From Candidatus Tepidifontimicrobium thermophilum (GTDB taxonomy: Bacteria; Sysuimicrobiota; Sysuimicrobiia; Sysuimicrobiales; Sysuimicrobiaceae): a DNA stretch of 64,000 bases. Position numbers and translations under genes: made by a program. Within the stretch, counting starts at the first letter, position 1; each line of letters opens with the position of its first letter. The stretch covers positions 56,389 through 120,388 of the forward strand of contig JAVKHO010000007.1 in the NCBI GenBank assembly GCA_031459915.1, in the 5' to 3' direction. This document shows positions 25,003 through 40,124 of this stretch, one piece after another. The notes beneath the pieces were generated by a model. The model did not search any database. It was not told the origin of the DNA and saw only the letters and a list, made by a program, of their open reading frames with translations.

Positions 25003-25679
25003 AGACGGTCCTGGTCCTGGCCCCTCACCCCGACGACGCGGAGATCGCCATGGGTGGTACCATGGCCGCGCTGGTGGCGCAGGGCTGGCGGGTGGTGGTG
25101 TGCGACCTCACCGATGGCGAGCCCACCCCGGTGGGCACGCCGGAGCGGCGGCGGCGGGAGGCGGAACGGGCGGCGCGGATTCTCGGCGTGGAGCGCCAGA
25201 TCCTGGACCTGCCCAACCGTTTCCTGCTGGACGGGGTGGAGGCGCGCAAGAAGGTGGCTGCGGTGATCCGGGCGGTGCGGCCCGAGTGGCTGTTCGTGCC
25301 GTACTGGGAGGACGCCCACCCCGACCACGTCCAGGCCGCCACCCTGTGTGAGGCGGCGCGGTTCTACGCCAAGCTGACCCACACGGACATCCCGGGGGAG
25401 CCCCACTACCCGCGCCGGGTCGTGCACTTCTTCTCCACCCACTACCGCATGGTGCGGCGGCCGTCCTTCGTGTTCGACGTGAGCGAGACGCTGGAGCGCA
25501 AGATGGAGAGCCTGCGCGCGTACGAGAGCCAGTTCGGAGTTGAGCGGGGCAACTCCTGGGTCCTGGAGGCGGTGCGGGATGCCGCCCGCTACTTCGGTTC
25601 CCTGGTGGGCGTCTCGTACGGGGAGCCCTTCCTCCTGCGGGAGGAGCTCGGGGTGCGGAACCTGGAGGGGTTAGTGTGA
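24999..25679 (+). CDS. PIG-L family deacetylase, BshB1-like
   Basis: APHPDDAE, DLTDGE, DAHPDH, AYESQF, YGEPF. Confidence 0.88.
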   Translation: MKTVLVLAPHPDDAEIAMGGTMAALVAQGWRVVVCDLTDGEPTPVGTPERRRREAERAARILGVERQILDLPNRFLLDGVEARKKVAAVIRAVRPEWLFVPYWEDAHPDHVQAATLCEAARFYAKLTHTDIPGEPHYPRRVVHFFSTHYRMVRRPSFVFDVSETLERKMESLRAYESQFGVERGNSWVLEAVRDAARYFGSLVGVSYGEPFLLREELGVRNLEGLV

Positions 25680-27220
25680 CCGACGTGACCGAGCTGTCCA
25701 TCCCCACGCGCCACGGCGAGGTCCTCTGCACGCCTGAGTTCAGCCGTTGGCTGGAGCTGGCGGAAGCCACCGCCCGGCGGCTGGACGCAGCAAGCGTCTT
25801 CGGCCGGCCCCTGAGCGCTCTGCGGGCGCAGGCCCGGTCCGAGCTCGTGGGACGGGCCCAGGCCCTGCTGGGCCGCTGGGGCTTCGCGCCCCCTGAGGCC
25901 TCCCACGGTCCGTGGGTCGCCACCGGCCACCAGCCCGGCCTGTATCACCCGGGGATCTGGATCAAGACGTGGGCCGTGGACATCTGCGCGGGCCAGGGGG
26001 CGACCGGGCTGCACGTGGTGGTGGACTCCGACGAGTGCCAGTCCTGGGGTGCCCGAGTCCCGAGGCGGGACGGGACGCTGCAGGGGGTGCAGCGGACCCT
26101 CGTGGAGTGCGGCGACGGTGTTCCCTTCGAGGCGGCCCCGGTACCCGAGGAGGCCCGCTGGCGGGCCTTCTGCGCACAGCTACGGGACGACCTCGGGACC
26201 CTCGGTCTCCCGGAGCTCCTGGAGCGGGTCTCCCGGGCAGAGCAGGCGGGCCTGGAAAGCCTCTCCCGCGCGCGGCACCTGGGCGATTTCGGGGCCGGCC
26301 TGCGCAGACGGTTGGAGACGAAGCACCGGCAGGTCCGCTACTGGGAGGTGACCGTATCCGAGCTGTCGGAGACGCAGGCCTTCGGCCAGTTCGCCGCCTG
26401 GATCGCCCAGGATGCGGAGCGTTTTCGCGCCTGCCACAACGCGGCCCTGGACGAGTACCGCCGGCAGCAGGGCCTGCGCTCCCCGGCGCAGCCGTTCCCC
26501 AACCTACGGCGGGAAGGCGACTGGGTGGAGTTGCCCTTCTGGCTGGTGCGGGAGGGGAAGCGGCGGCCGGTATTCGTGCGGCCCGGAGCTCCTCCCGTGG
26601 TGTTCTGCGAGGGCAGGCCCGTAGGCGAGCTCACGGACCGTGGGCTGGAGGGCCTGCGCCCCAGGGCCCTCACCCTCACCCTGTTCCTGCGGCTTCTGGT
26701 GGCGGATCTGTTCGTGCACGGCGTGGGAGGCGCGCGCTACGACCGCGTCACCGACCGGGTCCTAGAGGAGTTCTTCGGAGTCACACCGCCGCCCTTCGCG
26801 GTCCTCACGGCCACCTTCCATCTCCCGCTGGCGCGACACGCAGATCCCCGGGAGGCGTACGGGGCTGCGCAGCGTCTGTGGCTGGACCTGCAGCACAACC
26901 CGGACCGCCACCTGGCCGACCCCGCCCAGGCGCGTCCCCTGGTGGAGGAAAAGTGGCGCTGCATCCGGGCTCTGGAGGCCGCGGACCTGACCCGGTCCGC
27001 CCGCCGGGAGCTCGCCCGGCGCATCCGGGCCATCAACGAGGCTTTGCGGGCCCACGTGCAGGACCGGATCGCTGAAGTGGAGGCGGAGCTGGAGGCGTTG
27101 CGGCGGGAGGTGCAGGAACACGAGGTCGCCGCGGACCGAGGCTACCCCTTCTTCCTGTTCGACCCCGAGGAGGTCTGCGCGCCGTTGCGGGCGCAGGAGG
27201 GAGTTCGGTGCGGCCGCTAG
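25676..27220 (+). CDS. Hypothetical protein, distantly BshC-like (putative ligase) with C-terminal coiled coil
   Basis: ATGHQPGLYHPGIWIK resembles the BshC TGQQ/H-x-LF-G-P-Y-K motif; LRPRAL...FVHGVGGARYD; ~510 aa like BshC. Confidence 0.55.
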   Translation: MTDVTELSIPTRHGEVLCTPEFSRWLELAEATARRLDAASVFGRPLSALRAQARSELVGRAQALLGRWGFAPPEASHGPWVATGHQPGLYHPGIWIKTWAVDICAGQGATGLHVVVDSDECQSWGARVPRRDGTLQGVQRTLVECGDGVPFEAAPVPEEARWRAFCAQLRDDLGTLGLPELLERVSRAEQAGLESLSRARHLGDFGAGLRRRLETKHRQVRYWEVTVSELSETQAFGQFAAWIAQDAERFRACHNAALDEYRRQQGLRSPAQPFPNLRREGDWVELPFWLVREGKRRPVFVRPGAPPVVFCEGRPVGELTDRGLEGLRPRALTLTLFLRLLVADLFVHGVGGARYDRVTDRVLEEFFGVTPPPFAVLTATFHLPLARHADPREAYGAAQRLWLDLQHNPDRHLADPAQARPLVEEKWRCIRALEAADLTRSARRELARRIRAINEALRAHVQDRIAEVEAELEALRREVQEHEVAADRGYPFFLFDPEEVCAPLRAQEGVRCGR

Positions 27221-27888
27221 ACCCCGTGGTGACGGACGCCCTGGGCCGGCGGTTCGGGGCCGTGGTGGCCCTGCGGGGCGTGGGACTCCGGGTCGGGGAG
27301 GGCACGTGTCTGCTGCTGTTGGGCCCCAACGGGTCCGGCAAGACCACCCTGCTTCGGGTGCTGGCCACGGCCTTGCGCCCTACGGAGGGCCGCGCGTGGG
27401 TGTGCGGCTACGACGTGGTCTCGGAGGGTCACCGGGTGCGGGAACTGTGCGCTTTCCTGGGGACGTCCCCAGGCGTGTACGCGGGCCTCACCGGGTTCGA
27501 GAACCTGTGCCTGGCCGCGGACCTGTGTGGCCGGCCCCGGCGGCAGGTTGCGGAGCTGCTGGGGTGGGCCGGGCTGGAGCAGGTGGCCCACAGGCTGGTA
27601 CGCACTTACAGCCTCGGCATGCGGCGGCGGCTCGCCCTGGCGCGGGTCCGTTTGCAAGAGCCCCGGGTCCTGCTCTTGGACGAGCCCTTCGTGGGTCTGG
27701 ACGAGGAGGGGACCCGGCTGGTGGGCGAGCTGGTGACGGGGATCAAGAAGCAGAAAGGCGCGGTGGTCCTGGCCACCCACGACCGGCACCGCGCCCGGGC
27801 CGTGTGCGACGCGGTGGCAGAACTGGAGTCGGGCACGCTGCTGAGCTCGGGAACCGCGGGGCTCGCAGGAGCAGTGAGCCGGGGATGA
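27208..27888 (+). CDS. ccmA: Heme ABC exporter ATPase CcmA
   Basis: GPNGSGKTT, YSLGMRRRL, LLLDEPF; ccm context. Confidence 0.85.
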   Translation: MRPLDPVVTDALGRRFGAVVALRGVGLRVGEGTCLLLLGPNGSGKTTLLRVLATALRPTEGRAWVCGYDVVSEGHRVRELCAFLGTSPGVYAGLTGFENLCLAADLCGRPRRQVAELLGWAGLEQVAHRLVRTYSLGMRRRLALARVRLQEPRVLLLDEPFVGLDEEGTRLVGELVTGIKKQKGAVVLATHDRHRARAVCDAVAELESGTLLSSGTAGLAGAVSRG

Positions 27889-28538
27889 AGGCATGGCGGC
27901 GGGTGGCGGCCGTGGCCCGCAAGGACCTTCTCCTGGAGTGGCGCGGGCGCGACGCGGTGCTCCCCGCGGGCAGCTTCGGCTTCGCAGTCCTGCTGGTGCT
28001 AGGGCTGGTGTCCGGAGGTGGGGGGGAAGCCGCACCGTCGGCGCTGTGGGTGTCCGTCCTCCTGGCGGCAGTGCTGGCGGCAGGACGCGGTGCGGACCGG
28101 GAAGGAGAGGAGGGGACCCGGGAGGTGCTGCTGCTGTACCCCGGCAGCCGCGAGGACCTGTTCTGGGGAAGGTGGCTGGCTCTGTGCGTGGTGCTGCTGG
28201 TCCTGGCTGCGGGACTGTGGTGCGCGCAGGTTCTCCTGTTTGACGCTCCAACCCGCGGGGCGGGCGTGCTGATCCTGGCGGCCCTGTTGGCTACAGCGGG
28301 GCTCGGCGCGGCGGGCACGTTGCTGGCCGCGCTGGTGGCCCACGTGCGGGCAGGACCGTTGCTGATGCCCCTTCTGTTCCTGCCCGCCACGGTTCCCGTG
28401 TTGCTGGCGGGAGTGCGGCTTTCCGAGACCGCGGCCTCCGGAGCGCCTGCGGGCCCGTGGTGGGGCGTGCTGGTGGTGTTCGACCTCCTGTTTTTGCTGG
28501 TGGGCCCCGTCCTGTTCGAGCTGGTGGTGGAGGGGTAG
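27885..28538 (+). CDS. ccmB: Heme exporter permease CcmB
   Basis: RKDLLLEWR, LMPLLFLPATVPVLLAGV; multiple TMs. Confidence 0.85.
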   Translation: MKAWRRVAAVARKDLLLEWRGRDAVLPAGSFGFAVLLVLGLVSGGGGEAAPSALWVSVLLAAVLAAGRGADREGEEGTREVLLLYPGSREDLFWGRWLALCVVLLVLAAGLWCAQVLLFDAPTRGAGVLILAALLATAGLGAAGTLLAALVAHVRAGPLLMPLLFLPATVPVLLAGVRLSETAASGAPAGPWWGVLVVFDLLFLLVGPVLFELVVEG

Positions 28539-28540
28539 GC

Positions 28541-29179
28541 TTGCGGGCGTTCGCGGTGGGAGGGACTGCGGCGCTGTTGAGCGTGGGCCTGTTCCTGGCC
28601 CTGTGGGGCTCCCCCCCGGACGCCTACCAGGGCGAGTACGTACGGATCATGTACGTGCACGTCCCTGCGGCGGTAAGCGCCTACGGGGCCGCCGCGGTGG
28701 CCTTCGGGGCTGGTGCCCTGTACCTGTGGCGGCGCGACCGGCGGTGGGACTTCGTCGGGCGCGCGGGCGCGGAGCTAGCGGCCCTGTTCTCCGGGCTGAC
28801 CCTCCTCACCGGGATGCTCTGGGGAAAGCCCGTGTGGGGCGTGTGGTGGGCGTGGGACGCCCGGCTGGTCACCACCGCGGTGCTGTTCCTGCTGTACGTG
28901 GGCTGCCTGCTGGTCCGAGATCTCGCGGACGACCCCGAGCGGGGCCGGAGGCTGTCCGCGGCGGTGGCGGTGCTGGCCTTCCTGGACGTGCCGGTGGTCC
29001 ACTACTCGGTGGTGTGGTTCCGGACCCTGCACCAGGGCCCGTCCATCAGCCTGCAGGGTGTGAAGTTGGCGCCGGAGTTCCTCCTGCCGCTGGCGGTGAA
29101 CGCCGTGGCCTACCTGGCCCTGCTGAGTGTGCTGCTGGCCGAACGGGCGCGCCTCGCGAGTCTGGAGGGGGAACGTTGA
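28541..29179 (+). CDS. ccmC: Heme chaperone-loading protein CcmC
   Basis: RIMYVHVP, WGKPVWGVWWAWDARL (WWD motif), SVVWFRTLHQ. Confidence 0.93.
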   Translation: MRAFAVGGTAALLSVGLFLALWGSPPDAYQGEYVRIMYVHVPAAVSAYGAAAVAFGAGALYLWRRDRRWDFVGRAGAELAALFSGLTLLTGMLWGKPVWGVWWAWDARLVTTAVLFLLYVGCLLVRDLADDPERGRRLSAAVAVLAFLDVPVVHYSVVWFRTLHQGPSISLQGVKLAPEFLLPLAVNAVAYLALLSVLLAERARLASLEGER

Positions 29180-29304
29180 GCCCCTGGGCGTGGGTACTAA
29201 CCGCGTACGGCTGCGCCGCCCTGCTGGTGGGCGTTTACGCCTGGCGCCTGTGGCGCCGCTTGCGGCAGGTGTCCAGGGCCAGGCTGGGAGAGGGGGAGAC
29301 GTGA
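29176..29304 (+). CDS. ccmD: CcmD-like small membrane protein (42 aa)
   Basis: MSPWAWVLTAYG...LWRRLR; overlaps both the ccmC stop and the ccmE start. Confidence 0.75.
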   Translation: MSPWAWVLTAYGCAALLVGVYAWRLWRRLRQVSRARLGEGET

Positions 29305-29711
29305 AGCGCCTACGGCTTGCTGCCGCGGTGTTGCTGGTGGTGGGTTCCCTGGGCTACGTGGTGGCCGGCGGGCTCCGGGAGGCGGTGGTGTACTACGTGA
29401 CGCCCACGGAGCTGCAGTCCAGGACCCTGGACCCCCGACGGCCGGTGCGGGTCGGCGGACAGGTAGTACCCGGCTCCCTCCGGCGAGAGGGCGGTGCGCT
29501 GCGCTTCGTGCTGTCCGACGGGCAGGCCCGGCTGCCGGTGCGGTTTGCGGGCAGCGTGGAGGGGCTGCTGGTGGAAGGGCAGGGCGCGGTGGTGGAAGGC
29601 CGGCTGGGGCCGGACGGAACCCTGGAGGCCCGCAGCGTGGTGGTGAAGCACTCGGAGGAGTACACTCCACCCCGCTCTCCGTTGCCACCCGCGGAGCGGA
29701 ACGCGCCCTGA
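29301..29711 (+). CDS. ccmE: Heme chaperone CcmE (His-type)
   Basis: YYVTPTEL, RVGGQV, EGQGAVVEG, KHSEEY (H-x3-Y). Confidence 0.92.
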   Translation: MKRLRLAAAVLLVVGSLGYVVAGGLREAVVYYVTPTELQSRTLDPRRPVRVGGQVVPGSLRREGGALRFVLSDGQARLPVRFAGSVEGLLVEGQGAVVEGRLGPDGTLEARSVVVKHSEEYTPPRSPLPPAERNAP

Positions 29712-29901
29712 GCCAGCGCGGCTGGCCCGGCGTCCACGGACCGGAAGCGCTTGACGGGCTCGGATCGGGGCACGGAAAATCGTGGCCGGACCTTCACGGA
29801 GGGGGCCGAGAGGCTCCCTCTTTGCGTGTGCAGGCCGAAGAGGAGTCCGGGCATCGGAAGTCAAAAAGACACGCCAGCTCATTTTTGATTCGGGAGGCAG
29901 G

Positions 29902-30804
29902 TTGCACCGACGGCAAGCCGGACCCCTGTGCGGCCGGCGGCCCCGCGGGGGGGCCGGCGGGTTGTTGCTGCTGGTGGCGGCGATTCTCGGCCTCGCGGGC
30001 TGCCAGCCGTACGTCGGGGTGAGCACCCCCGCCAGGGAGGCCTACCAGCCCCTGGAAGGGTTCGTGGTGCGCATGAACTTCATGCCCCGCAAGCCCAGCG
30101 CGGACGAGGGCCGCAAGATCTACGAGGCGCGCTGCGCGGTGTGCCACGGGCCCGAGGGCCGTGGGGACGGCCCCATGGCGGAGCAGCTGACCGCTCCGGA
30201 GAAAAACCCGTACACGGACTTCTTGAGCCTGTTCCGCATCCACCCCAAGACCGAGCCGCTGCCGAGTCGGCCCGCCCGCTTCAACAACCTGGACCAGATG
30301 CGGTTGAACGCGCCGTTCGCCCTGTTCGAGACTATCGCCCGGGGCCGGCCCCACACTGCCATGCCCGGCTTCCAGCATCCCGCCTACGGTGCCGTGGATG
30401 GGGGTGATCCGCGCCTTACGGACGAACAGATCTGGGACGTGCTGTTCTGGGAGTGGAGCCGGACCACGAGCCGGGACCGGCTGGCACAGGGAAGGCGGAT
30501 CTACAACCAGCTGTGCGCCAGCTGCCACGGGGTGGCGGGCGACGGGAACGGTCCCGAGGCCGCCCGGATCCGCGAGCAGGTGTGGACGTGGGCGCGGGGT
30601 GTGGGGCCGGGGATCTTCACGGACCGGGACTGGATGGCCTACCGGAAGCCCACGGAGCTGTACCAGAAGATCGCGGAGGGAGTGCAGCGGCGCGGGCTGG
30701 AGCTCATGCCCGCCTACGCGGGCAAGCTCTCGGCGGACCAGATCTGGAGCGTGGTAGAGTACCTGTGGACGTTCGTGTACACGCCGCCGCAGGACCTGCG
30801 CTAG
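29902..30804 (+). CDS. Diheme c-type cytochrome, probable lipoprotein
   Basis: Lipobox LAGC; CAVCH and CASCH, each with a distal MP motif; TTG start after GGGAGG (uncertain). Confidence 0.85.
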   Translation: MHRRQAGPLCGRRPRGGAGGLLLLVAAILGLAGCQPYVGVSTPAREAYQPLEGFVVRMNFMPRKPSADEGRKIYEARCAVCHGPEGRGDGPMAEQLTAPEKNPYTDFLSLFRIHPKTEPLPSRPARFNNLDQMRLNAPFALFETIARGRPHTAMPGFQHPAYGAVDGGDPRLTDEQIWDVLFWEWSRTTSRDRLAQGRRIYNQLCASCHGVAGDGNGPEAARIREQVWTWARGVGPGIFTDRDWMAYRKPTELYQKIAEGVQRRGLELMPAYAGKLSADQIWSVVEYLWTFVYTPPQDLR

Positions 30805-30832: not shown

Positions 30833-31477
30833 GTGAACCGTCGGACGTTCCTCAAGGCGCTGAGTGCGGTGCCGGTGCTGGGGGGTCTCGGCGCCTTCCT
30901 GGCGCCGGTGCTGCGCTACCTGAAGCCGAACCTGGAGCCGGGGCTGGGGGTTCCCCAGGGGAAGGTGCCCCCGGACCTCGCGGAGGGGGACCTCCCGAAG
31001 GGGGAGCCGCTCCCCATCGCCACCCTGGAGGAGCTGCGCGAGCCCTGGTCCAGCAAGTTCTTCGTGTTCACCCAGAAGTACCCGCAGTACACGCCGGAGC
31101 TGGCCAAGGCGGCCACGGTCCCCGGGGTGGCCATCAAGCTGCCGTGGAAGTTGAGCTTCCCCGGCTACAAGGCCGGGAAGGAGCCCACGGACATCGTGGT
31201 GTTCTCCCGCATCTGCCCGCACCTGGGCTGCATCTTCAACTACGTGCCGAACTGGCGGGAGGTCACGGCGGGCTACGGCGGGTACGTGCCGCCGGAGGAA
31301 CGTCGCCACGGCCTCATGGCCTGCCCCTGCCACCTGTCCATCTACGACCCCGCGGACCGGGAGGTGCCCGGCCGGGTGCTGTCGGGACCCGCGCCCCGGC
31401 CCCCCCGCTACTTCACCTACGAGATCCGCGACGGGGTCATCGTGGTGACGGGCGCCGAGCCCGGCGGGATCGCCTAG
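30833..31477 (+). CDS. Rieske [2Fe-2S] subunit of a Rieske/cytochrome b complex
   Basis: Tat signal NRRTFLK; CPHLGC and CPCHLS boxes; GPAPRP. Confidence 0.93.
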   Translation: MNRRTFLKALSAVPVLGGLGAFLAPVLRYLKPNLEPGLGVPQGKVPPDLAEGDLPKGEPLPIATLEELREPWSSKFFVFTQKYPQYTPELAKAATVPGVAIKLPWKLSFPGYKAGKEPTDIVVFSRICPHLGCIFNYVPNWREVTAGYGGYVPPEERRHGLMACPCHLSIYDPADREVPGRVLSGPAPRPPRYFTYEIRDGVIVVTGAEPGGIA

Positions 31478-31489: not shown

Positions 31490-32638
31490 ATGTGGGACCG
31501 GTTGCGGGAGTGGTTCCGGGAGCGCAAGGAGAAGCTGGACCTTTTCGACGAGACCCAGGTCGACCGCCAGGACAACCCCCTCTACCTCCTCGGTCAGATC
31601 GTGTACTTCGCGTGGATCGCGGTGGTGGTGAGCGGGATCCTGCTCATGATCTGGTACGAGCCCACCACCCACGGCGCCTACAACTCCATCCTCCGCATCC
31701 AGCACGAGGTCCCCTTGGGCTGGCTGATCCGCGGGGTGCACAAGTACGGCGCGGACATGCTGATCCTCGCCATCACCCTGCGCATCTACCGGATGTACTT
31801 CCTGGGCGAGTACAAGCGGCCCAACGAGCTGTCGTGGATGATCCTGTTCGGCTCCCTGGTGCTGGCCATGATCTCCGGCCTCACGGGGTACCTGCTGATC
31901 TGGAACCAGCGGGCCTTCTGGGCGGCGAAGGTAGTCCTCACGGTGGCGGTGTACCTGGATGAGCTGCCCCTCATCGGGCAGACGCGGTTCGGCAGCGCCA
32001 TCGCCTTCGCCTTCCTGGGTGGGCCCGCGGAAGGGCAGGGGACTCTCACGCGCTTCTACGCCATCCACTTCGGCATCTCGGCCCTGCTGCTGGTGGCGGC
32101 GGAGATCTACTTCTACTTCACCCGGCGGCGCCGGTTCGTGTTGTCCCCCACCGCTTTGGTGATCCTGGCCCTCATGCTGGTGGTCACCAGCTACGTGTTC
32201 CCCGCGGAGATGGGCCGGCGGGCCGACCCCAACCGGACGCCGCTCCCGATCCTTTCCGACTGGTACTTCCTGGCGCTGTACCAGTACGTGAAGTACACCC
32301 CGCCCCTGTGGGCCGGGCTGGGGCCGGGTCTGCTGATCGCGTACGGGATGCTGGTGCCGTTCCTCGACCGCAGTAAGGGCCGCAGGCCGTCCGAGCGCCC
32401 CTTCTTCACCGTGGTGGGAATTATGGCCCTGACCTACTTCCTGGTGTTCACCGCTCTCATCATGTTCAACATCGCCGTGATCGGGAGGGACCCGCACGTG
32501 GTCCTGCTGGTCACCGCCGCCACCCTGGGTCTGGGCCTGGTGTTGGAGTTCCGTTACCGCCGGCGGAGGAAGCTCGCAGAGGCCGCCGCGCCGGCCCCGG
32601 CGCCGCGGGCCGCGCCGGCCCGGGCGACGGTGGGGTGA
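31490..32638 (+). CDS. Cytochrome b (b6 + subunit IV-like fused), only the bL His pair retained
   Basis: GWLIRGVH, TGYLLIWNQ, LTRFYAIH, SDWYF; Arg and Tyr at the second His positions. Confidence 0.88.
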   Translation: MWDRLREWFRERKEKLDLFDETQVDRQDNPLYLLGQIVYFAWIAVVVSGILLMIWYEPTTHGAYNSILRIQHEVPLGWLIRGVHKYGADMLILAITLRIYRMYFLGEYKRPNELSWMILFGSLVLAMISGLTGYLLIWNQRAFWAAKVVLTVAVYLDELPLIGQTRFGSAIAFAFLGGPAEGQGTLTRFYAIHFGISALLLVAAEIYFYFTRRRRFVLSPTALVILALMLVVTSYVFPAEMGRRADPNRTPLPILSDWYFLALYQYVKYTPPLWAGLGPGLLIAYGMLVPFLDRSKGRRPSERPFFTVVGIMALTYFLVFTALIMFNIAVIGRDPHVVLLVTAATLGLGLVLEFRYRRRRKLAEAAAPAPAPRAAPARATVG

Positions 32639-32642
32639 GGCG

Positions 32643-32906
32643 GTGGAGGCGGTCCGGTTCGGGATGGCTTTCGGCCTGGCGGTAGCAGGCCTGCACGGCA
32701 CCTGGCAGGCGGCGCGCCTGGCGTGGGTACAGCCCCAGCCGGAGCGGTGGCTTGTGGCGGCCGGGTGGCTGGCGGTGCTGGTGGTCTCGGCCGCGTGGGC
32801 GGGCTACCTGCTGTACGCCGCGGACCGCCGGGCGGGCCGGGTGCGTCGACGGGTCGCGGTGTACGAGCGCTGGCTGGCTTTCCAGCGAGGCGGGAGGTGG
32901 GCGTGA
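32643..32906 (+). CDS. Small 2-TM hypothetical protein
   Basis: SD GAGG, two hydrophobic segments, overlaps the next gene. Confidence 0.65.
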   Translation: MEAVRFGMAFGLAVAGLHGTWQAARLAWVQPQPERWLVAAGWLAVLVVSAAWAGYLLYAADRRAGRVRRRVAVYERWLAFQRGGRWA

Positions 32907-33106
32907 GGGAGCCAGAGCGCGGCGGCTGGTACCTGGCGGTGGCGGGCTTTCTGGCGGTACTGGCCCTGGCGTGCGTCGGCCTGATGGTGTACGGGGAGTG
33001 GTTCGACCGGCGCCTGGTGGCCTCGGGAGCCGTGGGCGTGCTGCTGGTGCTGTACGCCGTCATCGTGGTGCTGTTCCGCAAGGCGCACCTCACCGCGGAG
33101 GACTAG
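32903..33106 (+). CDS. Small 2-TM hypothetical protein
   Basis: GTG after GGGAGG, GTGA overlap; WYLAVAGFLAVLALA...VLLVLYAVIVVLF. Confidence 0.7.
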   Translation: MREPERGGWYLAVAGFLAVLALACVGLMVYGEWFDRRLVASGAVGVLLVLYAVIVVLFRKAHLTAED

Positions 33107-33107
33107 G

Positions 33108-34283
33108 GTGTACCGGCGGTTGTTGCTGAGCCTGCAGAGTGCCACCCTGCGGTTGGACACCTGGATCAACCGCGTCCTGCCGCAGGACTTCAACCCCCTG
33201 TACTACACCGGGGGGCTGTCGAACCTGTTCCTCACCATCCTGGTGGTGTCGGGGATCCTCATCTTCCTGTACTACGAGCCGAGCCTGGAGGGCGCCTACG
33301 CCTCGGTGGAGTTCCTCACCCGCGACGTGCCCTACGGGGTCGTGTTCCGCGGGATCCACCGCTACGCCGCGGACGCGTACCTGGTGGCCATCCTCCTGCA
33401 CCTGTTCCGGAACTGGTTCACGGACCGCTACCGGGAGGCCCGGGACAGCCAGTGGCTGTCGGGGATGTTCCTGCTGGTGGTGTCGGGCTTCGCGGGCTTC
33501 ACCGGCTACCTGTTGGTGTGGGACGAGCGGTCGCAGCTGCTGACGAGCCTCACGGTACAGGCCCTGAGGTCCGTCCCCCTGGTGGGAGACCGGCTCGCCC
33601 GGGTATTCCTGGGGGGCCCCGGGGTGAGCGACACCACCCTGCCGCGGTTCCTGTTCCTCCACGTGGGGCCCGCCATGACCCTGTACGTACTCCTGTGGTG
33701 GCACTACGTGCGCCTCCGCCACCCCAAGATCTGGCCCCCCTCCGTGTGGGTGCTGTTCAGCCTGGGCCTGCTGTTCATCCTCGCTTCCGCCTTGCCCGCC
33801 ACGAGCGGACGGCCGGCGCAGCCGGGCGCCTCGCCGGAGGGGTTCGCGGTGGACTGGTTCTTCCTGTGGCCGTACGTGCTGGCCCGCTGGCTGGCGCCCG
33901 GTTGGGCCCTGGCCCTGGTGGTGGCCCTGGTGGCATACGGCATGGTGGTCCCCTACACCCTGCGGGAGACTCCGGAGCAGCGGGGCGTCCGGGCCTTGGG
34001 CCAGGCGGTGGTGGTGGAGGAGAACTGCACGGGCTGCGAGCTGTGCTACTACGACTGCCCGTACAACGCCATCTACATGGTGCCGAGCCCGTACCCGGGG
34101 AAGAGCCGGGCTGCGGCCAACCGGAAGCTGCTGGCAGTGGTGGTGGACTCCCGGTGCGTGGAGTGCGGGATCTGTATCGGCGCCTGCCCCTTCGAGGCCC
34201 TGGAGTTGCCGAGGATGCTGGACAAGGACGTACAGCAGCGCATCCAGCGGGGCGCACGCGCCGCGGCCCCGGTGGGTTCCTGA
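33108..34283 (+). CDS. Cytochrome b fused to C-terminal 2[4Fe-4S] ferredoxin
   Basis: RGIHRY..LLHLFR and FLHV..WWHY (all four His); CTGCELCYYDCP and CVECGICIGACP. Confidence 0.9.
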   Translation: MYRRLLLSLQSATLRLDTWINRVLPQDFNPLYYTGGLSNLFLTILVVSGILIFLYYEPSLEGAYASVEFLTRDVPYGVVFRGIHRYAADAYLVAILLHLFRNWFTDRYREARDSQWLSGMFLLVVSGFAGFTGYLLVWDERSQLLTSLTVQALRSVPLVGDRLARVFLGGPGVSDTTLPRFLFLHVGPAMTLYVLLWWHYVRLRHPKIWPPSVWVLFSLGLLFILASALPATSGRPAQPGASPEGFAVDWFFLWPYVLARWLAPGWALALVVALVAYGMVVPYTLRETPEQRGVRALGQAVVVEENCTGCELCYYDCPYNAIYMVPSPYPGKSRAAANRKLLAVVVDSRCVECGICIGACPFEALELPRMLDKDVQQRIQRGARAAAPVGS

Positions 34284-34293
34284 GGCGAGAGCC

Positions 34294-34725
34294 ATGGCGA
34301 CGGTACCGGATCGGACCCCGCAGGCGGAGGAGGCAGCCCCCCGGGTCGTGGGGTTCCTGTGCGACTGGGCGGTACGCAGCGAGGGGCTCCTGAGCGCCGA
34401 CGACACCCTGGTAGGCATGCCGCATGTCACGGTGATCCGGGTCCCCTGCTCAGGGTTCGTCAAGCCCGGGTGGTTGGAGCTGGCGCTGCGCAGCGGCGCC
34501 GCGGGCGCCTTCGTGTGCGGTTGCCCCATGGGGGACTGCCTCAACCGGGAAGGCAACTGGATCATGGAGGATCGCATCGACCAGCTGCGGAAGCGTTTGA
34601 GCCGGCAGAAGGTGGACCCTGAGCGGGTCGCGTTCTTCGCCTTCGGCCTGCACGAGCGGGAGGACTTCCTGCGCGCGGTGGCGGAGTTCGTGGACCGGGT
34701 GCGCGGATCCGGAGGGAAGCGGTGA
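34294..34725 (+). CDS. MvhD/FlpD-family [2Fe-2S] protein
   Basis: VVGFLCDW, IRVPCSG, GCPMGDC..REGN, VDPERV. Confidence 0.85.
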   Translation: MATVPDRTPQAEEAAPRVVGFLCDWAVRSEGLLSADDTLVGMPHVTVIRVPCSGFVKPGWLELALRSGAAGAFVCGCPMGDCLNREGNWIMEDRIDQLRKRLSRQKVDPERVAFFAFGLHEREDFLRAVAEFVDRVRGSGGKR

Positions 34726-34838
34726 CGCGGTTTGGCCCGAAACGGTGGAAGACGTACCTGTGGTACGCCCTGTTCTACCTGGTGTTCTTTGCCCTGTTGC
34801 TGTTCGTGGCGGCCTTCGGTCTGGTGGCGGAGGCGTAG
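34722..34838 (+). CDS. 38-aa single-TM peptide (not in the ORF track)
   Basis: MTRFGPKRWKTYLWYALFYLVFFALLLFVAAFGLVAEA; GGAGGG SD, GTGA overlap with the mvhD-like stop. Confidence 0.7.
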   Translation: MTRFGPKRWKTYLWYALFYLVFFALLLFVAAFGLVAEA

Positions 34839-34853: not shown

Positions 34854-36248
34854 ATGCTGGCGTGGATGTTCACCGACGAGCGATGGAGCTCCGTCCGGCG
34901 GTTCCTGTACGCGGGCGCGCTGTGGGGGATCCTGGCGCTGGCCTACGAGGCGCTGGCCGCCGCGCAGCGGGCCTGGCCGCAGGTCCTCGCGGACGTCCCC
35001 TGGGTGTCCCACGGGCGGGTGGTGGCCACCGGACAGGACCTGTGGGTGTTCGGTTTCCTGTCCCACCTCCTGGTGGGCGCGGCGCTGCGGGTGGTGGGAC
35101 AGGGCGACCGGGAGGGGCTGTGGAGCGAGCCCCTCGCGAACCTGAGCCTGTGGCTGTGGACTGTGGCGCAGGTGCTCAGCTGGTGGTGGATCTCCACGGG
35201 CTGGACCCGAGGCCGACCGCTCGGTGAGGCTCCCTGGCCGGTGGACCTGCTCCGGCTAGCGGGCGCGCTGCTTCTGTTGTGGGTGGTTCGCAACACGCTC
35301 GTCCGATCTCCCCGTAGGGACCCCGCGCTGGCCCTGGTGTTCGCGGGCTTCACCGGGCTGCCTCTGGTCCTAGTACTGGGGAAGGGCTTGTTCTGGCCCT
35401 TCGACAACCCCTACCACGGGATCCTGGACGCTCTGAGCCAGGCGTTCCTGCGGGCAGGCCTGGTCTGGCTATGGGGGGTCCCGCTGGCCGGTGGGGTCTG
35501 CCTGTACGTCCTGTCGGCCCTGACCGGCCGGCGCGGGCTTTCGGAGGGAGTGGGCTTCGCCGCCCTGTTCGGCCTGGTCAGTTTCGGGGCTCTCGCTGGG
35601 CCCGCGGAGTTCGTGTGGGGTCCGGTGCCGTTCTGGGTGCAGACCGTGGGCGCTGTGGCGCAGGGGCTGCTGGTGTTGCCGGTGGCGACGCTGCTCGTGG
35701 GTGCCGCGCGGTCGCTGGAAGGGCACTGGCAGTCCCTCGGGGACCACCCCGGTGTGGTCTTCGTGCTGGCGGGCTGGCTGGCGCTGACCTCCGGCGTGTC
35801 TTTGAGCGCGCTGGCGTCCCTCGTGGGTCCCAGCCGCGTGGTGCACCTCTCCCTGTGGGGAGAGGGGGTGCGGGTTCTGGTGCTGGGCGGCTGTGCCGCG
35901 GTGGCCGTGGGGTGTGCGTACCTGCTGACGCCACACGTGCTGGGACGCTCGCTAGCGAGCCGGGCCCTGGCCTGGCGGCATCTGTGGCTGGTGGTGGTGG
36001 CGTGGGCGCTCTCTGCGCCCGCGCTGCTGCTGGCGGGTCTGAGCCAGGGTGCGGCTTGGGCCACGGGCACGGTGCCCTTCGCTCACGCGGTACAGGCCAG
36101 CCGGCCCCTGCTGGCCGTGGCCTGGGCCGCGGCTCTGCTGGTGTGGGTCGGCCAGGCGGTGTTCGCGTGGAACCTGTTCTTGACCTCAGACTCCGGGGAA
36201 CCGGTTCCCGCAGCGGAGCAGGAGCTCCTGCCGGTGGCGGGGTCTTAG
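34854..36248 (+). CDS. cbb3-type oxidase subunit I (CcoN)-like protein lacking metal ligands
   Basis: ~12 TM; GR, GWTRGRPLGEAPWPVD, GPVPFWVQT and GLSQG..W align with CcoN; followed by a CcoO-like gene. Confidence 0.75.
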   Translation: MLAWMFTDERWSSVRRFLYAGALWGILALAYEALAAAQRAWPQVLADVPWVSHGRVVATGQDLWVFGFLSHLLVGAALRVVGQGDREGLWSEPLANLSLWLWTVAQVLSWWWISTGWTRGRPLGEAPWPVDLLRLAGALLLLWVVRNTLVRSPRRDPALALVFAGFTGLPLVLVLGKGLFWPFDNPYHGILDALSQAFLRAGLVWLWGVPLAGGVCLYVLSALTGRRGLSEGVGFAALFGLVSFGALAGPAEFVWGPVPFWVQTVGAVAQGLLVLPVATLLVGAARSLEGHWQSLGDHPGVVFVLAGWLALTSGVSLSALASLVGPSRVVHLSLWGEGVRVLVLGGCAAVAVGCAYLLTPHVLGRSLASRALAWRHLWLVVVAWALSAPALLLAGLSQGAAWATGTVPFAHAVQASRPLLAVAWAAALLVWVGQAVFAWNLFLTSDSGEPVPAAEQELLPVAGS

Positions 36249-36283
36249 GAGTGCGCCAGGCGGTGGGTCCTGGAGGTGGTGCG

Positions 36284-36742
36284 GTGAGGGATGCCGTGGG
36301 AGCTGTAGGGCGGCTGGTGGTGGCCGCGGTGGTGTGCGGGTTTGTGGTGACCGCCCTCCTGCCCGCCCTAGATCCTGCGGTCCGGACCGCGCGGGCGGCG
36401 CCCCTGTCAGCCCAGGCGGCGCGGGGGCGGTGGGTGTACGTGAGGGAGGGGTGTGTGGTCTGCCACACCCAGCAGGTGCGAGGGGTGGAGGCCCGGTTCG
36501 GCGTGGTGCGCGCGCCGGGTGACGTGGGGCAGGCTTCAACTGCGGAGCAGTACTCCGGTCAGGACCCCGTGCTGCTGGGTCGGCTGCGCCTAGGGCCGGA
36601 CCTGTCAAGGGTAGGGGCGCGTACCTCGGGACAGGAATTGCGGACGGCGCTGCTGTCGGGCACGGGGGGCATGCCCTCGTACCGGTACCTCTCGGACGCG
36701 GAGCTGGCTGACCTGGTGGCGTACCTGCTGGCGCTGCGGTAG
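36284..36742 (+). CDS. cbb3-type subunit II (CcoO/FixO)-like monoheme cytochrome c
   Basis: GRWVYVREGCVVCHTQQVR, GPDLSRVGAR, MPSY. Confidence 0.85.
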   Translation: MRDAVGAVGRLVVAAVVCGFVVTALLPALDPAVRTARAAPLSAQAARGRWVYVREGCVVCHTQQVRGVEARFGVVRAPGDVGQASTAEQYSGQDPVLLGRLRLGPDLSRVGARTSGQELRTALLSGTGGMPSYRYLSDAELADLVAYLLALR

Positions 36743-36750: not shown

Positions 36751-37296
36751 ATGGGAAACGAAACGACCACCGCGAGGCCTTCCCGCTGGCTGCTGGCGCT
36801 GTACGTGCTGCTGCCTTTGTGGGCCCTGGCGTACCTGTTCGTGGCGGGTGGGCTGGTGCAGCCGGAAATCAGGCCGGTGGCGCGGAACGTGGAGGGTGTT
36901 TCTGCAGGCACCGCCGCGGCGCCGGACGGCTCCGAGCACGTGATGGGCATCCTGGCGGTGGTCCCGGAGGACGCCAGGGACGACCAGCCCCCGCGTCCGG
37001 TGACGGACGCCATGCTGGCCCAGGCGAAGGCCCAGTACGACACCCTGTGCGCGGTGTGCCACGGACCCGAGGGACGCGGGGACGGCCCCGCGGGCGCGGC
37101 CCTGAACCCGAAACCCCTCAACTTCCACTTCCGGGCCTTTCAGGAACGGATGCCGGTGGGCGCTACCCACTGGGTGATCAAGAACGGCCTGGGCAACACT
37201 CCCCGCCGCAGCGGGATGCCGGCCTTCGGCCAGCTACCGGACGACCAGATCTGGGCCCTGGTGGAGTACGTCCGGCGGCTGGGCCGCCAGCCATGA
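36751..37296 (+). CDS. Membrane-anchored monoheme cytochrome c
   Basis: N-terminal TM, CAVCH, SGMPAF, QIWALVEY. Confidence 0.88.
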   Translation: MGNETTTARPSRWLLALYVLLPLWALAYLFVAGGLVQPEIRPVARNVEGVSAGTAAAPDGSEHVMGILAVVPEDARDDQPPRPVTDAMLAQAKAQYDTLCAVCHGPEGRGDGPAGAALNPKPLNFHFRAFQERMPVGATHWVIKNGLGNTPRRSGMPAFGQLPDDQIWALVEYVRRLGRQP

Positions 37297-38270
37297 CGCA
37301 GGCCGCGGCAGACGCCCTGGCCTCCGCCTACGCCCCGGTTCGCGAGGACCTGGAGCGGCTGCAGGACCTGCTGCGCCAGGAACTGGCGGCCCACGACCCC
37401 TTCCTCATGGAGCTGGTGTCGCATGTGCTGCATACCCGCGGCAAGATGGTGCGGCCGGCCCTGGCGTTCCTGTGCGCGCGCCTGGCAGGAGGGGGAGGGG
37501 CGCACCGTGACCTGGTGGCTGCGGCGGTGGAGCTCATCCACGTGGCCAGCCTCATCCACGACGACGTGATCGACGAGGCCGACCGCCGGCGCGGTCAGGC
37601 GACGCCCAACGCCCGGTGGGGCAACCACGTGGCGGTGTTGCTGGGTGACTACCTGTTCAGCAAGGCCTTCCACCTGCTCTCCCGAGTCGGGCGGGACGAC
37701 GTGGCGAGCCGGGTGGCCTTCGCCACCGTGCGCATGAGCCAGGCGGAGCTGCTCCAGGTCAAGTACGGCAACACCCCGCACACGGACGAGTCGGTGTACT
37801 TTGCCATCGTGGAAGGCAAGACCGCCCAGCTGGTGTCCTCCGCGTGCGCGGGAGGGGCGCTGGTGGGGGGAGGGGACGGGGATCTGGCGGAGCGGCTGGG
37901 CACCTTCGGGCTGCACTGGGGCGTGGCCTTCCAGATCACCGACGACACCCTGGATCTCACCAGCGACCCGGAAGTCCTAGGCAAGCCGATTGGCAGCGAC
38001 GTCCGGGGAGGGAAGGTCACCCTGCCCTTGATCCACGCGCTCCGCCACGCGGACGAGCAGGGGCGCCGGCGGCTGGAGAAGTGGATCCGGGCAGGCGAGC
38101 TGGCCCCGCTCCGGCACGCCCTGGAGACATCCGGGTCCTTCGCCTACGCCCTGGAGGTGGCCCGGCAGCACGCCCAGCGGGCGCTCCGCATCCTGGAGAC
38201 ACTTCCGGGAGGGCCGGAGCGTGACAGCTTGGCGGCCCTCACGGAGTTCGTGGTCTCCCGCCGCCACTAG
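37293..38270 (+). CDS. Long-chain polyprenyl diphosphate synthase (HepT/IspB-like)
   Basis: GKMVRP, LIHDDVID..RRG, GKTA, FQITDDTLD, GKVTLP. Confidence 0.92.
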   Translation: MTQAAADALASAYAPVREDLERLQDLLRQELAAHDPFLMELVSHVLHTRGKMVRPALAFLCARLAGGGGAHRDLVAAAVELIHVASLIHDDVIDEADRRRGQATPNARWGNHVAVLLGDYLFSKAFHLLSRVGRDDVASRVAFATVRMSQAELLQVKYGNTPHTDESVYFAIVEGKTAQLVSSACAGGALVGGGDGDLAERLGTFGLHWGVAFQITDDTLDLTSDPEVLGKPIGSDVRGGKVTLPLIHALRHADEQGRRRLEKWIRAGELAPLRHALETSGSFAYALEVARQHAQRALRILETLPGGPERDSLAALTEFVVSRRH

Positions 38271-38406
38271 GCCCCATTGGAGGCGTGACCCACCCGGGCG
38301 GTCGCCTGGTGGCGGCCGCGCAGCTCGGGTACACTGCCTCTCGGTGGAGGCGGTGCGGCACTGGCTGGACAGCCTGCGGACGCCCCTGGGGAGGGTGCGG
38401 GAGGCC

Positions 38407-39546
38407 ATGGTGTCGTTCGCCGTGGCCACCACCTCGCGTCACCTGGAGGCGTACCGGGAGGTGGTGGTCAGGCGGTGGCGGGCCTCCCTGCAGCGCCGCG
38501 TGGCCCGGTACGCCGAACACCCGGATCTGTCTGACCGCTGGGGGAAGCAGACGGTGGACTTGCTGGTCCAGGTGATGCGGGCCCGGGGCGAGGTGGAGCG
38601 GCTGGAGGCCCGCGACCGGGTCTTCGAGCACGCGCACCGGGTGGCCTCCGAGCAGCTGGAACTGGGGTTCAGCCTGGAGGAGATCCTGCAGGCTCTGAGC
38701 CTGCTGCGCAGCAGCCTGTCCGCCCAAGTGCAGGTGATGCTGAGCCGGCGGCTGTGGGTGGCATTCCCCCCTGACGTGATGCTGGCCACGGAGCGGGTCC
38801 ACGAGGCCATCGACCTGCAGATGCTGGCCATCGGCCAGGCCTACCTGGAGGCCCGGGACCGGGTGATCCGGGAGAAGCAGCGGGACCTGGAGGAGAGCAA
38901 CGAGAAGCTGCGGACCCTGCTGCGGGAGATGCACCACCGGATCAAGAACAACCTGCAGACCCTCGCCGACCTCCTGTACCTGGAAGCCCTCGAAGCAGGG
39001 GGAGCTGCCCGCAAGAGCCTCCTGGACAGCATCGGCCGGGTGAAGAGCATCGCCGCGGTGCACCAGATGCTGTCCGCGGACCGCATCGAGGCGGTGGAGG
39101 TACGCCGGCTGGCGGAGCGCATCGGGGAGATCATCGGGCGGGACCTGGTCCGAGCGGGCCGTGCGGTGCGCGTGGAGATCCAGGGTCCGGAGGTGTGGCT
39201 GCCGAGCAAACAGGCCACAGCCCTGGCCCTGGTGCTAAGCGAGCTGATCCACAACGCGCTGGAGCACGCCTTCCCGGACGGGCGCGGGCGGGTGGTAGTG
39301 CACCTCGGGCAGGTGGGCCAGGAGGTGTGGGTGAGGGTCCGGGACGACGGGGTGGGCCTGCCGCCGGATTTCTCCGTGGAGCGGCACGGACACCTGGGCC
39401 TGCGTATCGTCCGGGACCTGGTGAGCCGTGACCTGCGGGGCACCTTCTCCCTTCGCTCGGAGGGCGGGGCGGTGGCGGAGGTGCATTTCCAGGTGCCCGA
39501 GGCCGGGGAGGAAGTGGGGCCGGCGGTCGGGGAGGTGACGGCGTGA
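38407..39546 (+). CDS. Soluble sensor histidine kinase (HisKA_2, PdtaS/EutW-like) with RsbR-N/globin-like N-terminal domain
   Basis: EMHHRIKNNLQ, ELIHNALEHAF, DDGVG, HLGLRIV; helical N-terminus with LGFSLEEI; no TM. Confidence 0.85.
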   Translation: MVSFAVATTSRHLEAYREVVVRRWRASLQRRVARYAEHPDLSDRWGKQTVDLLVQVMRARGEVERLEARDRVFEHAHRVASEQLELGFSLEEILQALSLLRSSLSAQVQVMLSRRLWVAFPPDVMLATERVHEAIDLQMLAIGQAYLEARDRVIREKQRDLEESNEKLRTLLREMHHRIKNNLQTLADLLYLEALEAGGAARKSLLDSIGRVKSIAAVHQMLSADRIEAVEVRRLAERIGEIIGRDLVRAGRAVRVEIQGPEVWLPSKQATALALVLSELIHNALEHAFPDGRGRVVVHLGQVGQEVWVRVRDDGVGLPPDFSVERHGHLGLRIVRDLVSRDLRGTFSLRSEGGAVAEVHFQVPEAGEEVGPAVGEVTA

Positions 39547-40124
39547 AGGACCGTCTGCGCATCCTCATCGCGGACGACGAGGCCATCCGGGTCATGACCC
39601 TGAGGACCCAGCTGCGGGCGTTGGGCTTCGAAGTGGTGGCGGAGGCCACCAACGGCCGCGAGGCGGTGGAGCTGGCCGAGCGCCACCACCCCGACCTGGC
39701 CATCCTCGACATCAAGATGCCGGAGCTGGACGGGATCGCCGCGGCGCGGGAGATCACCGCCCGCGGGCCCATCCCCGTGATCCTGCTCACCGCGTACAGC
39801 GAGCCGGAGCTGGTGGAGCGGGCCACGGAGGCCGGGGTGTTCGCCTACCTGGTCAAGCCCGTGAGCGAGGAGGACCTGCTCCCCACCATCCTCCTGGCGC
39901 GGGCGCGGTTCGAGGAGTTCCGGCTCCTGCAGAAGGAGGTGGCGGACCTGCGGGAGGCCCTCGAGGCGCGGAAGGTCATCGAGCGGGCCAAGGGGATCCT
40001 CATGAAGCGGCTGGGGATCAGCGAAGCCGAGGCCTTCCGCCGCATGCAGGTGCAGAGCCAGAAGGAGAACAAGAAACTGGTGGAGATCGCCCGGGCCATC
40101 GTGACGGCCCACGGGGTGCTGTAG
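39543..40124 (+). CDS. Response regulator with ANTAR RNA-binding domain (PdtaR/EutV-like)
   Basis: IADDE, LDIKMP, YLVKP; LEARKVIERAKGILM..ISEAEAF. Confidence 0.93.
   Translation: MKDRLRILIADDEAIRVMTLRTQLRALGFEVVAEATNGREAVELAERHHPDLAILDIKMPELDGIAAAREITARGPIPVILLTAYSEPELVERATEAGVFAYLVKPVSEEDLLPTILLARARFEEFRLLQKEVADLREALEARKVIERAKGILMKRLGISEAEAFRRMQVQSQKENKKLVEIARAIVTAHGVL

What the first reader, a model, noticed from the sequence alone, without database searches (positions are those of the whole stretch)
34854..36742. CcoN-like pseudo-enzyme: all six canonical metal-ligand histidines absent, but CcoO partner intact
By-eye alignment to CcoN: GRLRPLH becomes GRVVATG (Gly at 35031), QWWYGHN becomes QAFLRAG, GPHH becomes GPAE (35604-35609), and HYTDWTIGHVH becomes HLSLWGEGVRV. 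The ORF is full length and the downstream CcoO-like gene keeps CxxCH and the MP axial Met. Known: these His residues bind heme b, heme b3 and CuB, so O2 or NO reduction is impossible without them. Inference: a repurposed membrane scaffold that positions c-type cytochromes, an ion conduit, or a partner for an active oxidase encoded elsewhere. An automatic 'cbb3 oxidase' annotation would mislead.
Basis: partly seen in the sequence, partly recalled or inferred. Interest (0 to 1): 0.8.

Follow-up and report, generated by a model that had tools for sequence, protein, structure and literature searches.

The report
Cofactor-free cbb3 oxidase turned cytochrome scaffold
This conserved, transcribed gene is a full-length relative of the catalytic subunit of a cbb3 oxygen reductase that lacks every haem and copper ligand, so it would not be the oxidase databases call it; it likely serves as a membrane platform for two cytochromes c beside an unusual respiratory complex III.

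Summary
Confirmed. The 464-aa ORF (34854-36248) has the CcoN fold (TM-score 0.86 to 3MK7) but none of the six His ligands or the cross-linked Tyr, and no substitute ligand is conserved. It is not decaying: omega 0.07 across 14 orthologues without stops, with sense-strand transcripts in one shallow metatranscriptome. It occurs in 14 of 94 Sysuimicrobiota (CSP1-3/GAL15) genomes, always with a CcoO and a tethered monohaem cytochrome c, behind a two-cytochrome-b Rieske operon that 81 of 94 genomes carry. No intact CcoN was found in the phylum; this genome has three other haem-copper enzymes with CuA subunits. Conservation has moved from the cofactor helices to the periplasmic loops. One orthologue keeps two His and a Met, linking the family to intact His/Met-type CcoNs. 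Best reading (0.6): a non-catalytic scaffold holding an optional cytochrome c relay between complex III and CuA enzymes; binding and electron direction are untested. This scan noted ligand-less CcoNs before on other DNA (Acidimicrobiia and probable relatives); my tree favours a separate loss here, but does not prove it (AU p 0.08). Not found in ten literature searches.

The parts
34854..36248 (+). Ligand-less CcoN homologue (psi-CcoN), 464 aa, 12 predicted membrane helices
36284..36742 (+). CcoO-like monohaem cytochrome c, N-terminal membrane anchor, CxxCH and axial Met
36751..37296 (+). Monohaem cytochrome c with N-terminal membrane helix and a long Pro/Ala-containing linker; CcoP/ActE-like haem domain
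34722..34838 (+). 38-aa single-helix membrane protein, conserved with the bc core also where psi-CcoN is absent
34294..34725 (+). MvhD/FlpD-like Fe-S protein
   Evidence: PF02662
33108..34283 (+). Cytochrome b with all four haem His, fused to a 2x[4Fe-4S] ferredoxin domain
32643..33106 (+). Two small membrane proteins (32643-32906 and 32903-33106)
31490..32638 (+). Cytochrome b lacking both haem bH His ligands (Arg98, Tyr207), SDWY at the Qo motif
30833..31477 (+). Rieske protein with TAT-like signal
29782..30804 (+). Dihaem cytochrome c (true start probably downstream of 29782)
29751..29780 (+). Sigma-70-like promoter match upstream of the operon (1 found, 0.1 expected); RNA coverage begins in the same bin
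37293..38270 (+). Polyprenyl diphosphate synthase, overlapping the cytochrome c stop; fixed downstream neighbour
27208..29711 (+). ccmA, ccmB, ccmC, probable ccmD and ccmE (cytochrome c maturation)

Best explanation
The protein is a haem- and copper-ligand-free descendant of a C-family (cbb3) oxygen-reductase subunit I that is kept under purifying selection and likely works as a membrane scaffold for its CcoO-type cytochrome c and a second, tethered cytochrome c. Shown: CcoN fold, loss of all six His and the Tyr, selection, transcription, fixed gene order, strict co-occurrence of the three genes. Inferred: (1) psi-CcoN binds CcoO through the same periplasmic loops as in cbb3; (2) the trio sits at the exit of the two-cytochrome-b Rieske complex; (3) its two haems pass the high-potential electrons of quinol oxidation from the complex's dihaem cytochrome c to CuA-type acceptors encoded elsewhere (two A-family oxidases, a third haem-copper enzyme, possibly a copper nitrite reductase-like protein). 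The module is an optional accessory: most of the phylum keeps the bc core without it. My odds by step: not an O2/NO reductase about 0.97; scaffold for CcoO about 0.8; exit relay about 0.6.
For: Ligand loss in 26 of 26 close members; no alternative His/Met/Cys conserved near the sites. Pairwise dN/dS 0.09 and 0.13 to the two closest genomes, 0.18-0.31 to five at middle distance; codon-model omega 0.070 against 0.107 for ccmC, 0.088 for CcoO, 0.015 for cyt b1; no stops in 14 of 14. Stranded RNA run X6: 179 reads, practically all on the sense strand, depth 2.1-2.6 over psi-CcoN against 1.4-4.7 over cyt b1. psi-CcoN in 14 of 94 genomes, CcoO in the same 14, cytochrome c orthologues at E<1e-27 in the same 14. 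Order cytb-Fd, mvhD, small helix, psi-CcoN, CcoO, cyt c in 13 of 13 relatives fetched. Columns conserved at 90% or more: periplasmic loops 50 of 101, cofactor helices 18 of 97; in 21 intact CcoNs of like divergence 38 of 101 and 34 of 97. The genome's three intact haem-copper enzymes each have a CuA-motif subunit II without CxxCH, and 4 of its 7 PF13442 matches lie in this operon. The tethered cytochrome's best solved relatives include ActE of alternative complex III and CcoP. In Melainabacteria the same bc core lies beside a CcoN in 14 of 19 loci, intact in 8 of 8 read. In 23 of 61 loci of the phylum a cupredoxin-motif protein alone fills the same slot.
Against: 81 of 94 genomes have the bc core and only 14 the module, and 19 of 61 loci have neither module nor cupredoxin in the slot, so the module is not needed by the complex; one locus has both. 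G000 has cupredoxins and three further cytochrome c domains elsewhere that could do the relay. In cbb3 CcoO passes electrons inwards to haem b (established); with haem b gone it could be a dead end, and G013's CcoO lacks the axial Met. The nearest intact relative seen in context (L137) has no bc genes within 19 kb, and the Melainabacteria CcoN is a different clade in a different position, so the link to complex III rests on gene order alone. Loop and side assignments were made by homology, the control set has its own relatedness structure, and the 14 genomes are close kin (three families). dN/dS to distant orthologues is about 0.5 with dS near saturation. RNA evidence is one shallow run; X4 and X5 gave 7 and 2 reads, mostly of the other orientation.
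Confidence: 0.6

Rival explanations
1. Entry module: the scaffold holds the two cytochromes to collect electrons from a periplasmic donor and feed them into the Rieske complex, which runs in reverse towards menaquinone and the cytoplasmic Fe-S/MvhD arm.
For: The bc core has a cytoplasmic 2x[4Fe-4S]/MvhD arm and one cyt b without haem bH (66 of 67 scored loci lack both His). The phylum is described as partly chemoautotrophic on H2 or sulfide (PMC11604079, abstract start). CcoO/CcoP take electrons in from cytochrome c in cbb3 (established).
Against: No periplasmic donor enzyme lies in the operon in 13 of 13 relatives; the same core is paired with an intact oxidase in Melainabacteria, which points to forward flow. 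Donor enzymes elsewhere in the genome were not surveyed.
Confidence: 0.14
2. Entrenched relic: psi-CcoN is kept only because CcoO (or a supercomplex with A-family oxidases) cannot assemble without it; the haems act as a charge buffer or sensor rather than a wire.
For: Selection acts on surface loops and both termini; the module is lost as a block in 80 of 94 genomes; a stepwise decay series exists (G016 keeps H60, H207 and a Met at 347).
Against: The tethered cytochrome c is strongly conserved (omega 0.059, CxxCH and MP in 13 of 13), as expected of a working carrier.
Confidence: 0.12
3. New binding or transport function: the emptied haem pockets now bind a quinone, lipid or ion, or conduct ions.
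For: Buried charged positions are conserved: D62, R134 and E125 in 14 of 14, E32 in 19 of 21 and E337 in 18 of 21.
Against: The cofactor helices are the least constrained part (helix VII 1 of 16, helix VI 5 of 30 columns conserved); columns of the C-family proton channel are variable (identities recalled); D62 is already present in His/Met-type intact relatives. No coordinates were available to inspect cavities.
Confidence: 0.08
4. Active oxidase or NO reductase with migrated ligands.
For: Fold intact; some HCO families swap single ligands (His/Met, His/Lys, Asp for His; PMC11214002, passages).
Against: No conserved His, Met or Cys in or near the sites; ligand columns vary freely.
Confidence: 0.03
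5. Pseudogene drifting neutrally.
For: Fastest-diverging large gene of the operon (37-54% identity outside the genus).
Against: omega 0.07, 83 synonymous to 23 non-synonymous codon changes against G002, no stops in 14 of 14; transcribed.
Confidence: 0.02

Closest known systems
cbb3-type (C-family) oxygen reductase CcoN/CcoO/CcoP, P. stutzeri 3MK7, P. aeruginosa 8SMR
   Same: 12-helix fold (TM 0.85-0.86), 23% identity over the full length, gene order N-O-cytochrome c, CcoO haem motif, periplasmic loop motifs
   Different: No haem b, haem b3 or CuB ligands, no cross-link Tyr, R57/E122 lost; third gene is monohaem with a long linker; embedded in a Rieske/cyt b operon
His/Met-type CcoN subfamily (Met at the H347 position; e.g. 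P0194 named Deinococcus marmoris, P0030, P0033, P0038)
   Same: Sister group in the careful tree (98/99); shared GKGL..NP[YF] loop motif and a similar CcoO insertion
   Different: These keep five His, the Tyr and the Met; the one seen in context (L137) has no bc genes nearby; I found no characterisation of them
Fused complex III-IV operon of Melainabacteria (Obscuribacter), mentioned in PMC6349859 (passages)
   Same: Same core: dihaem cyt c, Rieske, cyt b without bH, cyt b-ferredoxin, MvhD, with a CcoN/CcoO neighbour
   Different: CcoN is intact, of another clade, and upstream of the core
PDWF-FeS clade of cytochrome b (Kao and Hunte 2014, PMC4122944; passages)
   Same: Cytochrome b carrying a 4Fe-4S domain and an MvhD subunit
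   Different: The paper reports no Rieske gene in those clusters and has no mention of CcoN or cbb3; here a Rieske and a second, bH-less cyt b are present
Ligand-less CcoN families noted earlier by this scan (Acidimicrobiia beside a b6-type complex; ACIII-linked forms); unpublished AI notes
   Same: Loss of all ligands, kept CcoO, position beside a quinol-oxidising complex
   Different: In my tree the clade holding an Acidimicrobiia member (P0060) is separate (99/99), though a single origin is not rejected (AU p 0.08)

Membership tests
Haem-copper oxidoreductase superfamily (by descent) | 12-helix subunit I fold, PF00115 above cut-off | tested here: met
   87.8 bits vs 34.8; TM 0.86
C-family (cbb3) oxygen reductase | Two His for low-spin haem b (H60, H347) | tested here: not met
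   G60, V341
C-family (cbb3) oxygen reductase | His for high-spin haem b3 (H345) | tested here: not met
   V339
C-family (cbb3) oxygen reductase | Three His for CuB (H207, H257, H258) | tested here: not met
   A201, A251, E252
C-family (cbb3) oxygen reductase | Cross-linked Tyr in helix VII (Y251) | tested here: not met
   G or A in 14 of 14
C-family (cbb3) oxygen reductase | Adjacent CcoO monohaem subunit | tested here: met
   PF02433 above cut-off, adjacent in 13 of 13 relatives
C-family (cbb3) oxygen reductase | TIGR00780 ccoN equivalog cut-off | tested here: inconclusive
   78 vs 583 bits, but an intact Melainabacteria CcoN also fails (273), so the model does not discriminate
C-family (cbb3) oxygen reductase | O2 reduction and proton pumping | not testable with these tools
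   needs protein
cNOR/qNOR and related NO reductases | FeB site of three His and a Glu, two haems | tested here: not met
   no His at these columns; fold and sequence closer to CcoN than NorB
PDWF-FeS-type Rieske/cytochrome b operon (host operon) | Cytochrome b with 4Fe-4S domain and MvhD | tested here: met
   placement in the published clade by tree not tested
Acidimicrobiia-type ligand-less CcoN (earlier scan notes) | Common origin of the ligand loss | tested here: inconclusive
   separate clades in the ML tree, union not rejected, p-AU 0.08; FastTree joined them at 0.82

The most novel reading that the evidence does not exclude
Oxygen reductases have repeatedly been stripped of their cofactors and recycled as dedicated structural subunits of complex III: here a cofactor-free CcoN docks two c haems onto an asymmetric two-cytochrome-b Rieske complex that splits quinol electrons between cytoplasmic Fe-S carriers and CuA oxidases, forming a III-pseudo-IV supercomplex that arose independently in Sysuimicrobiota and Acidimicrobiia, with the intermediate stage (one His/Met haem, no copper site) still alive in G016.
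Probability: 0.3. Interest if true: 0.82.

Novelty: new variant of a known kind. Interest (0 to 1): 0.62.

Why it matters
A 2024 survey of the superfamily calls the active-site histidines completely conserved outside one family (PMC11214002), yet 53 of 106 full-length 50%-identity representatives related to this protein have none of the six (a sample biased by the query). Such genes are named 'cbb3 oxidase subunit I' by their sources, which inflates predictions of high-affinity microaerobic respiration. If the scaffold reading holds, it is a respiratory pseudo-enzyme with a traceable decay series, and a handle on an uncharacterised complex III found in 81 of 94 genomes of a widespread soil and hot-spring phylum.

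Tried and rejected
The structure tool gave no coordinates, so cavities and residue-level superposition were not inspected; ligand columns rest on sequence alignments. 'Partner of an intact cbb3 elsewhere': rejected for the genomes searched; 11 mid-scoring PF00115 loci of relatives were fetched (of many more listed) and read as qNOR-, sNOR-, eNOR- or B-type by motif (labels recalled), and the one extra hit (L136) is a fragment without CcoN motifs. 'Cupredoxin replaces the module one-for-one': weakened, 19 of 61 loci have neither and one has both. 'Direct descent from the Melainabacteria operon CcoN': not supported by the tree. FastTree grouped psi-CcoN with other ligand-less clades (0.82); the site-mixture model did not, so I treat that as possible long-branch attraction. 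A metagenome scan with P0031 found nothing; with alignment A3 two loci. BLASTP of the tethered cytochrome against the L137 CcoP-like protein showed no usable match in the part printed. Literature: ten full-text searches found no description of a ligand-less CcoN; Soo et al. 2017 and Dibrova et al. 2013 were not held, a recalled PMC id led to an unrelated paper; no supplements were opened, and subscription papers on odd cbb3 operons could hold a prior mention. Presence of alternative complex III in G000 was not tested.

Full report
Observation. The ORF at 34854-36248 encodes 464 residues without interruption. It passes the COX1 family cut-off (87.8 vs 34.8 bits) and aligns end to end with cbb3 subunit I of P. 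stutzeri (3mk7_A, E 3e-22). An AlphaFold model from a 22-row alignment (pLDDT 85.8) matches CcoN structures best (TM 0.85-0.86), then cNOR (0.79-0.80). At the ligand columns the protein reads G60, A201, A251, E252, V339, V341 for H60, H207, H257, H258, H345, H347, and G245 for the cross-link Y251. All 26 close family members examined have 0 of 6 His. No replacement is conserved: in 21 aligned orthologues His71 occurs 3 times, His331 4 times, and Met is conserved only at positions 1 and 5; His376 (20 of 21) matches a helix XI His of intact CcoNs.

Surroundings. The gene is the ninth of a tightly packed + strand cluster behind ccmABC(D)E: dihaem cytochrome c, Rieske, cytochrome b1, two small membrane proteins, cytochrome b2 fused to a 2x[4Fe-4S] domain, MvhD, a 38-aa helix, psi-CcoN, CcoO (36284-36742), a monohaem cytochrome c (36751-37296), polyprenyl synthase. 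Cytochrome b1 lacks both haem bH His in 66 of 67 loci that could be scored, out of 80; b2 keeps all four His in 80 of 80. Homologues are named candidate division GAL15 or Armatimonadota and related loci Ca. Sysuimicrobiota. The order b2-Fd, mvhD, helix, psi-CcoN, CcoO, cyt c holds in 13 of 13 relatives fetched (two contigs truncated).

Selection and expression. Nei-Gojobori dN/dS from G000 is 0.13 and 0.09 to the two closest genomes, 0.18-0.31 to five more, and about 0.5 to two distant ones where dS nears saturation (9 of 13 pairs printed). A codon model on 14 sequences gives omega 0.070, between cyt b1 (0.015) and ccmC (0.107); high GC may bias the absolute values. No orthologue has a stop. 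Four of seven listed RNA runs were laid: X6 gave 179 reads, practically all in sense orientation, with depth 2.1-2.6 over psi-CcoN, similar to the rest of the operon and zero over the bins covering most of ccmC-E; X4 and X5 gave 7 and 2 reads, mostly in the other orientation; X1 contigs may include DNA.

Distribution. A profile holding both intact and ligand-less CcoNs found matches in 14 of 94 genomes of the phylum, all orthologues of this gene, plus one non-CcoN fragment. CcoO (PF02433) is in the same 14, and close orthologues of the tethered cytochrome in the same 14 (five more genomes have weak hits near 1e-16). The b2-Fd gene is in 81 of 94. The 14 fall in three families and are not independent. 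In 61 loci of the bc core from this phylum the slot after mvhD holds psi-CcoN in 10 (one with a cupredoxin too), a cupredoxin-motif protein alone in 23, nothing in 19, and is cut off in 9. G000 (96% complete) has three intact haem-copper enzymes: two A-family and one with an HPSQQ motif (eNOR-like, label recalled), each with a CuA-motif subunit II.

Origin. G016's orthologue keeps H60, H207 and has Met at 347 but lacks H257, H258, H345 and the Tyr; it branches first in the family. The sister group (98/99 in the careful LG+C20 tree of 48 chosen rows) is a set of CcoNs with five His and Met at 347, one named Deinococcus marmoris, sharing a loop motif and a CcoO insertion. His/Met ligation of the low-spin haem has a precedent in nNOR (PMC11214002, passages). 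Thirteen other ligand-poor proteins, one cluster of them named Acidimicrobiia, form a separate clade (99/99); an AU test does not reject their union with this family (p 0.08), and FastTree had joined them. So independent loss is favoured, not shown. In Melainabacteria the same bc core lies downstream of a CcoN in 14 of 19 loci (the other five are short contigs), with all ligands in the 8 read in full; this is the fused complex III-IV mentioned in PMC6349859 (passages). That CcoN is another clade, and the one His/Met-type gene seen in context has no bc neighbours, so the pairing with this complex III probably happened more than once.

Where selection acts. With segments assigned by homology, columns conserved in 90% or more of 21 orthologues number 50 of 101 in periplasmic loops, 18 of 97 in helices II, VI, VII, X, 39 of 189 in other helices and 17 of 77 on the cytoplasmic side; 21 intact CcoNs drawn at random from 108 (mean identity 0.57 vs 0.55) give 38, 34, 37 and 17. 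Constraint has left the cofactor helices and stayed on the face that carries CcoO in cbb3 (established from 3MK7, recalled). Unexplained: invariant D62, R134 and E125, and a well-conserved N-terminal segment and end of helix XII.

Mechanism. Shown: it cannot bind the canonical cofactors, it is maintained, and it travels with two c-type cytochromes behind complex III genes. Inferred: it binds CcoO; the second cytochrome, with a membrane helix, a long linker (very Pro/Ala-rich in G016) and a haem domain resembling ActE and CcoP, acts as a tethered shuttle; together they carry electrons from the dihaem cytochrome to CuA enzymes. In P. aeruginosa a bc1-cbb3 supercomplex forms through contacts of cytochrome c1 with CcoN, CcoO and CcoP (PMC10556555, passages), a precedent for CcoNOP docking on complex III. 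Against: the module is dispensable in most of the phylum, other carriers exist in G000, and CcoO may be a dead end without haem b. I put this at 0.6, the entry reading at 0.14, entrenchment at 0.12, a new ligand or ion function at 0.08.

Known and new. By descent it is a haem-copper superfamily member; it fails every catalytic criterion of the C family. Ten library searches and passages of Murali 2024, Kao and Hunte 2014 and two CSP1-3 papers (no 'cbb3' or 'cco' in either main text) showed no description of such proteins; two relevant papers were not held and no supplements were read. Ligand-less relatives are common: 53 of 106 representatives of 400 or more residues among the 150 best hits have 0 of 6 His and 21 have all six. 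This scan noted the phenomenon earlier on other DNA; those notes are unchecked and are not counted as support. Verdict: real, conserved, mis-annotated pseudo-enzyme; new variant of a known kind; interest 0.62.

Noticed in passing
window 31490-34725: Asymmetric cytochrome b pair: b1 has lost both haem bH ligands, b2 keeps both haems and is fused to a 2x[4Fe-4S] domain followed by MvhD; core present in 81 of 94 genomes of the phylum and in Melainabacteria. May send the low-potential electron into the cytoplasm.
   Followed up: partly
P0031, P0194, P0030, P0033, P0038; L137:8836-10902: A CcoN subfamily with Met in place of the second low-spin haem His (five His and Tyr kept), often fused to CcoO; sister to the family studied.
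   Followed up: partly
L025:2880-4280 (G016): Orthologue keeping H60, H207 and a Met at 347 without the copper and high-spin ligands; the operon also keeps a cupredoxin gene.
   Followed up: partly
L141:8357-9619 (G000 C4): A 421-aa divergent COX1-like protein directly behind the eNOR-like subunit I, with some His kept but no helix VII His pair; similar weak hits lie beside the eNOR-like gene in several relatives.
   Followed up: no
L113:7627-9117, L114:2212-3714, L118; L115-L117, L119, L120, L122: Patchy sNOR-like and qNOR-like NO reductase genes among relatives (motif labels recalled).
   Followed up: no
L142:4769-6094 (G000 C1): Copper nitrite reductase-like protein with a C-terminal cupredoxin domain, next to a cupredoxin gene.
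   Followed up: no
L045, L054, L061 and 20 more loci, between mvhD and the polyprenyl synthase: A small cupredoxin with a lipoprotein-like N-terminus in the slot that psi-CcoN occupies here.
   Followed up: partly
L023:9033-9485 (G013): CcoO orthologue without the axial Met (a His lies one position on).
   Followed up: no
genus g7 (8 genomes): No bc core found in 8 of 8 and no haem-copper subunit I in the 3 searched: possibly an anaerobic branch of the phylum.
   Followed up: no
window 24259-27220: Glycosyltransferase, PIG-L-type deacetylase and a 514-aa protein without a clear Pfam family, conserved upstream of the ccm genes; may be a thiol biosynthesis cluster (guess).
   Followed up: no
window 38221-40124: Histidine kinase-like and response regulator genes, syntenic with the operon and transcribed on the same strand.
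   Followed up: no
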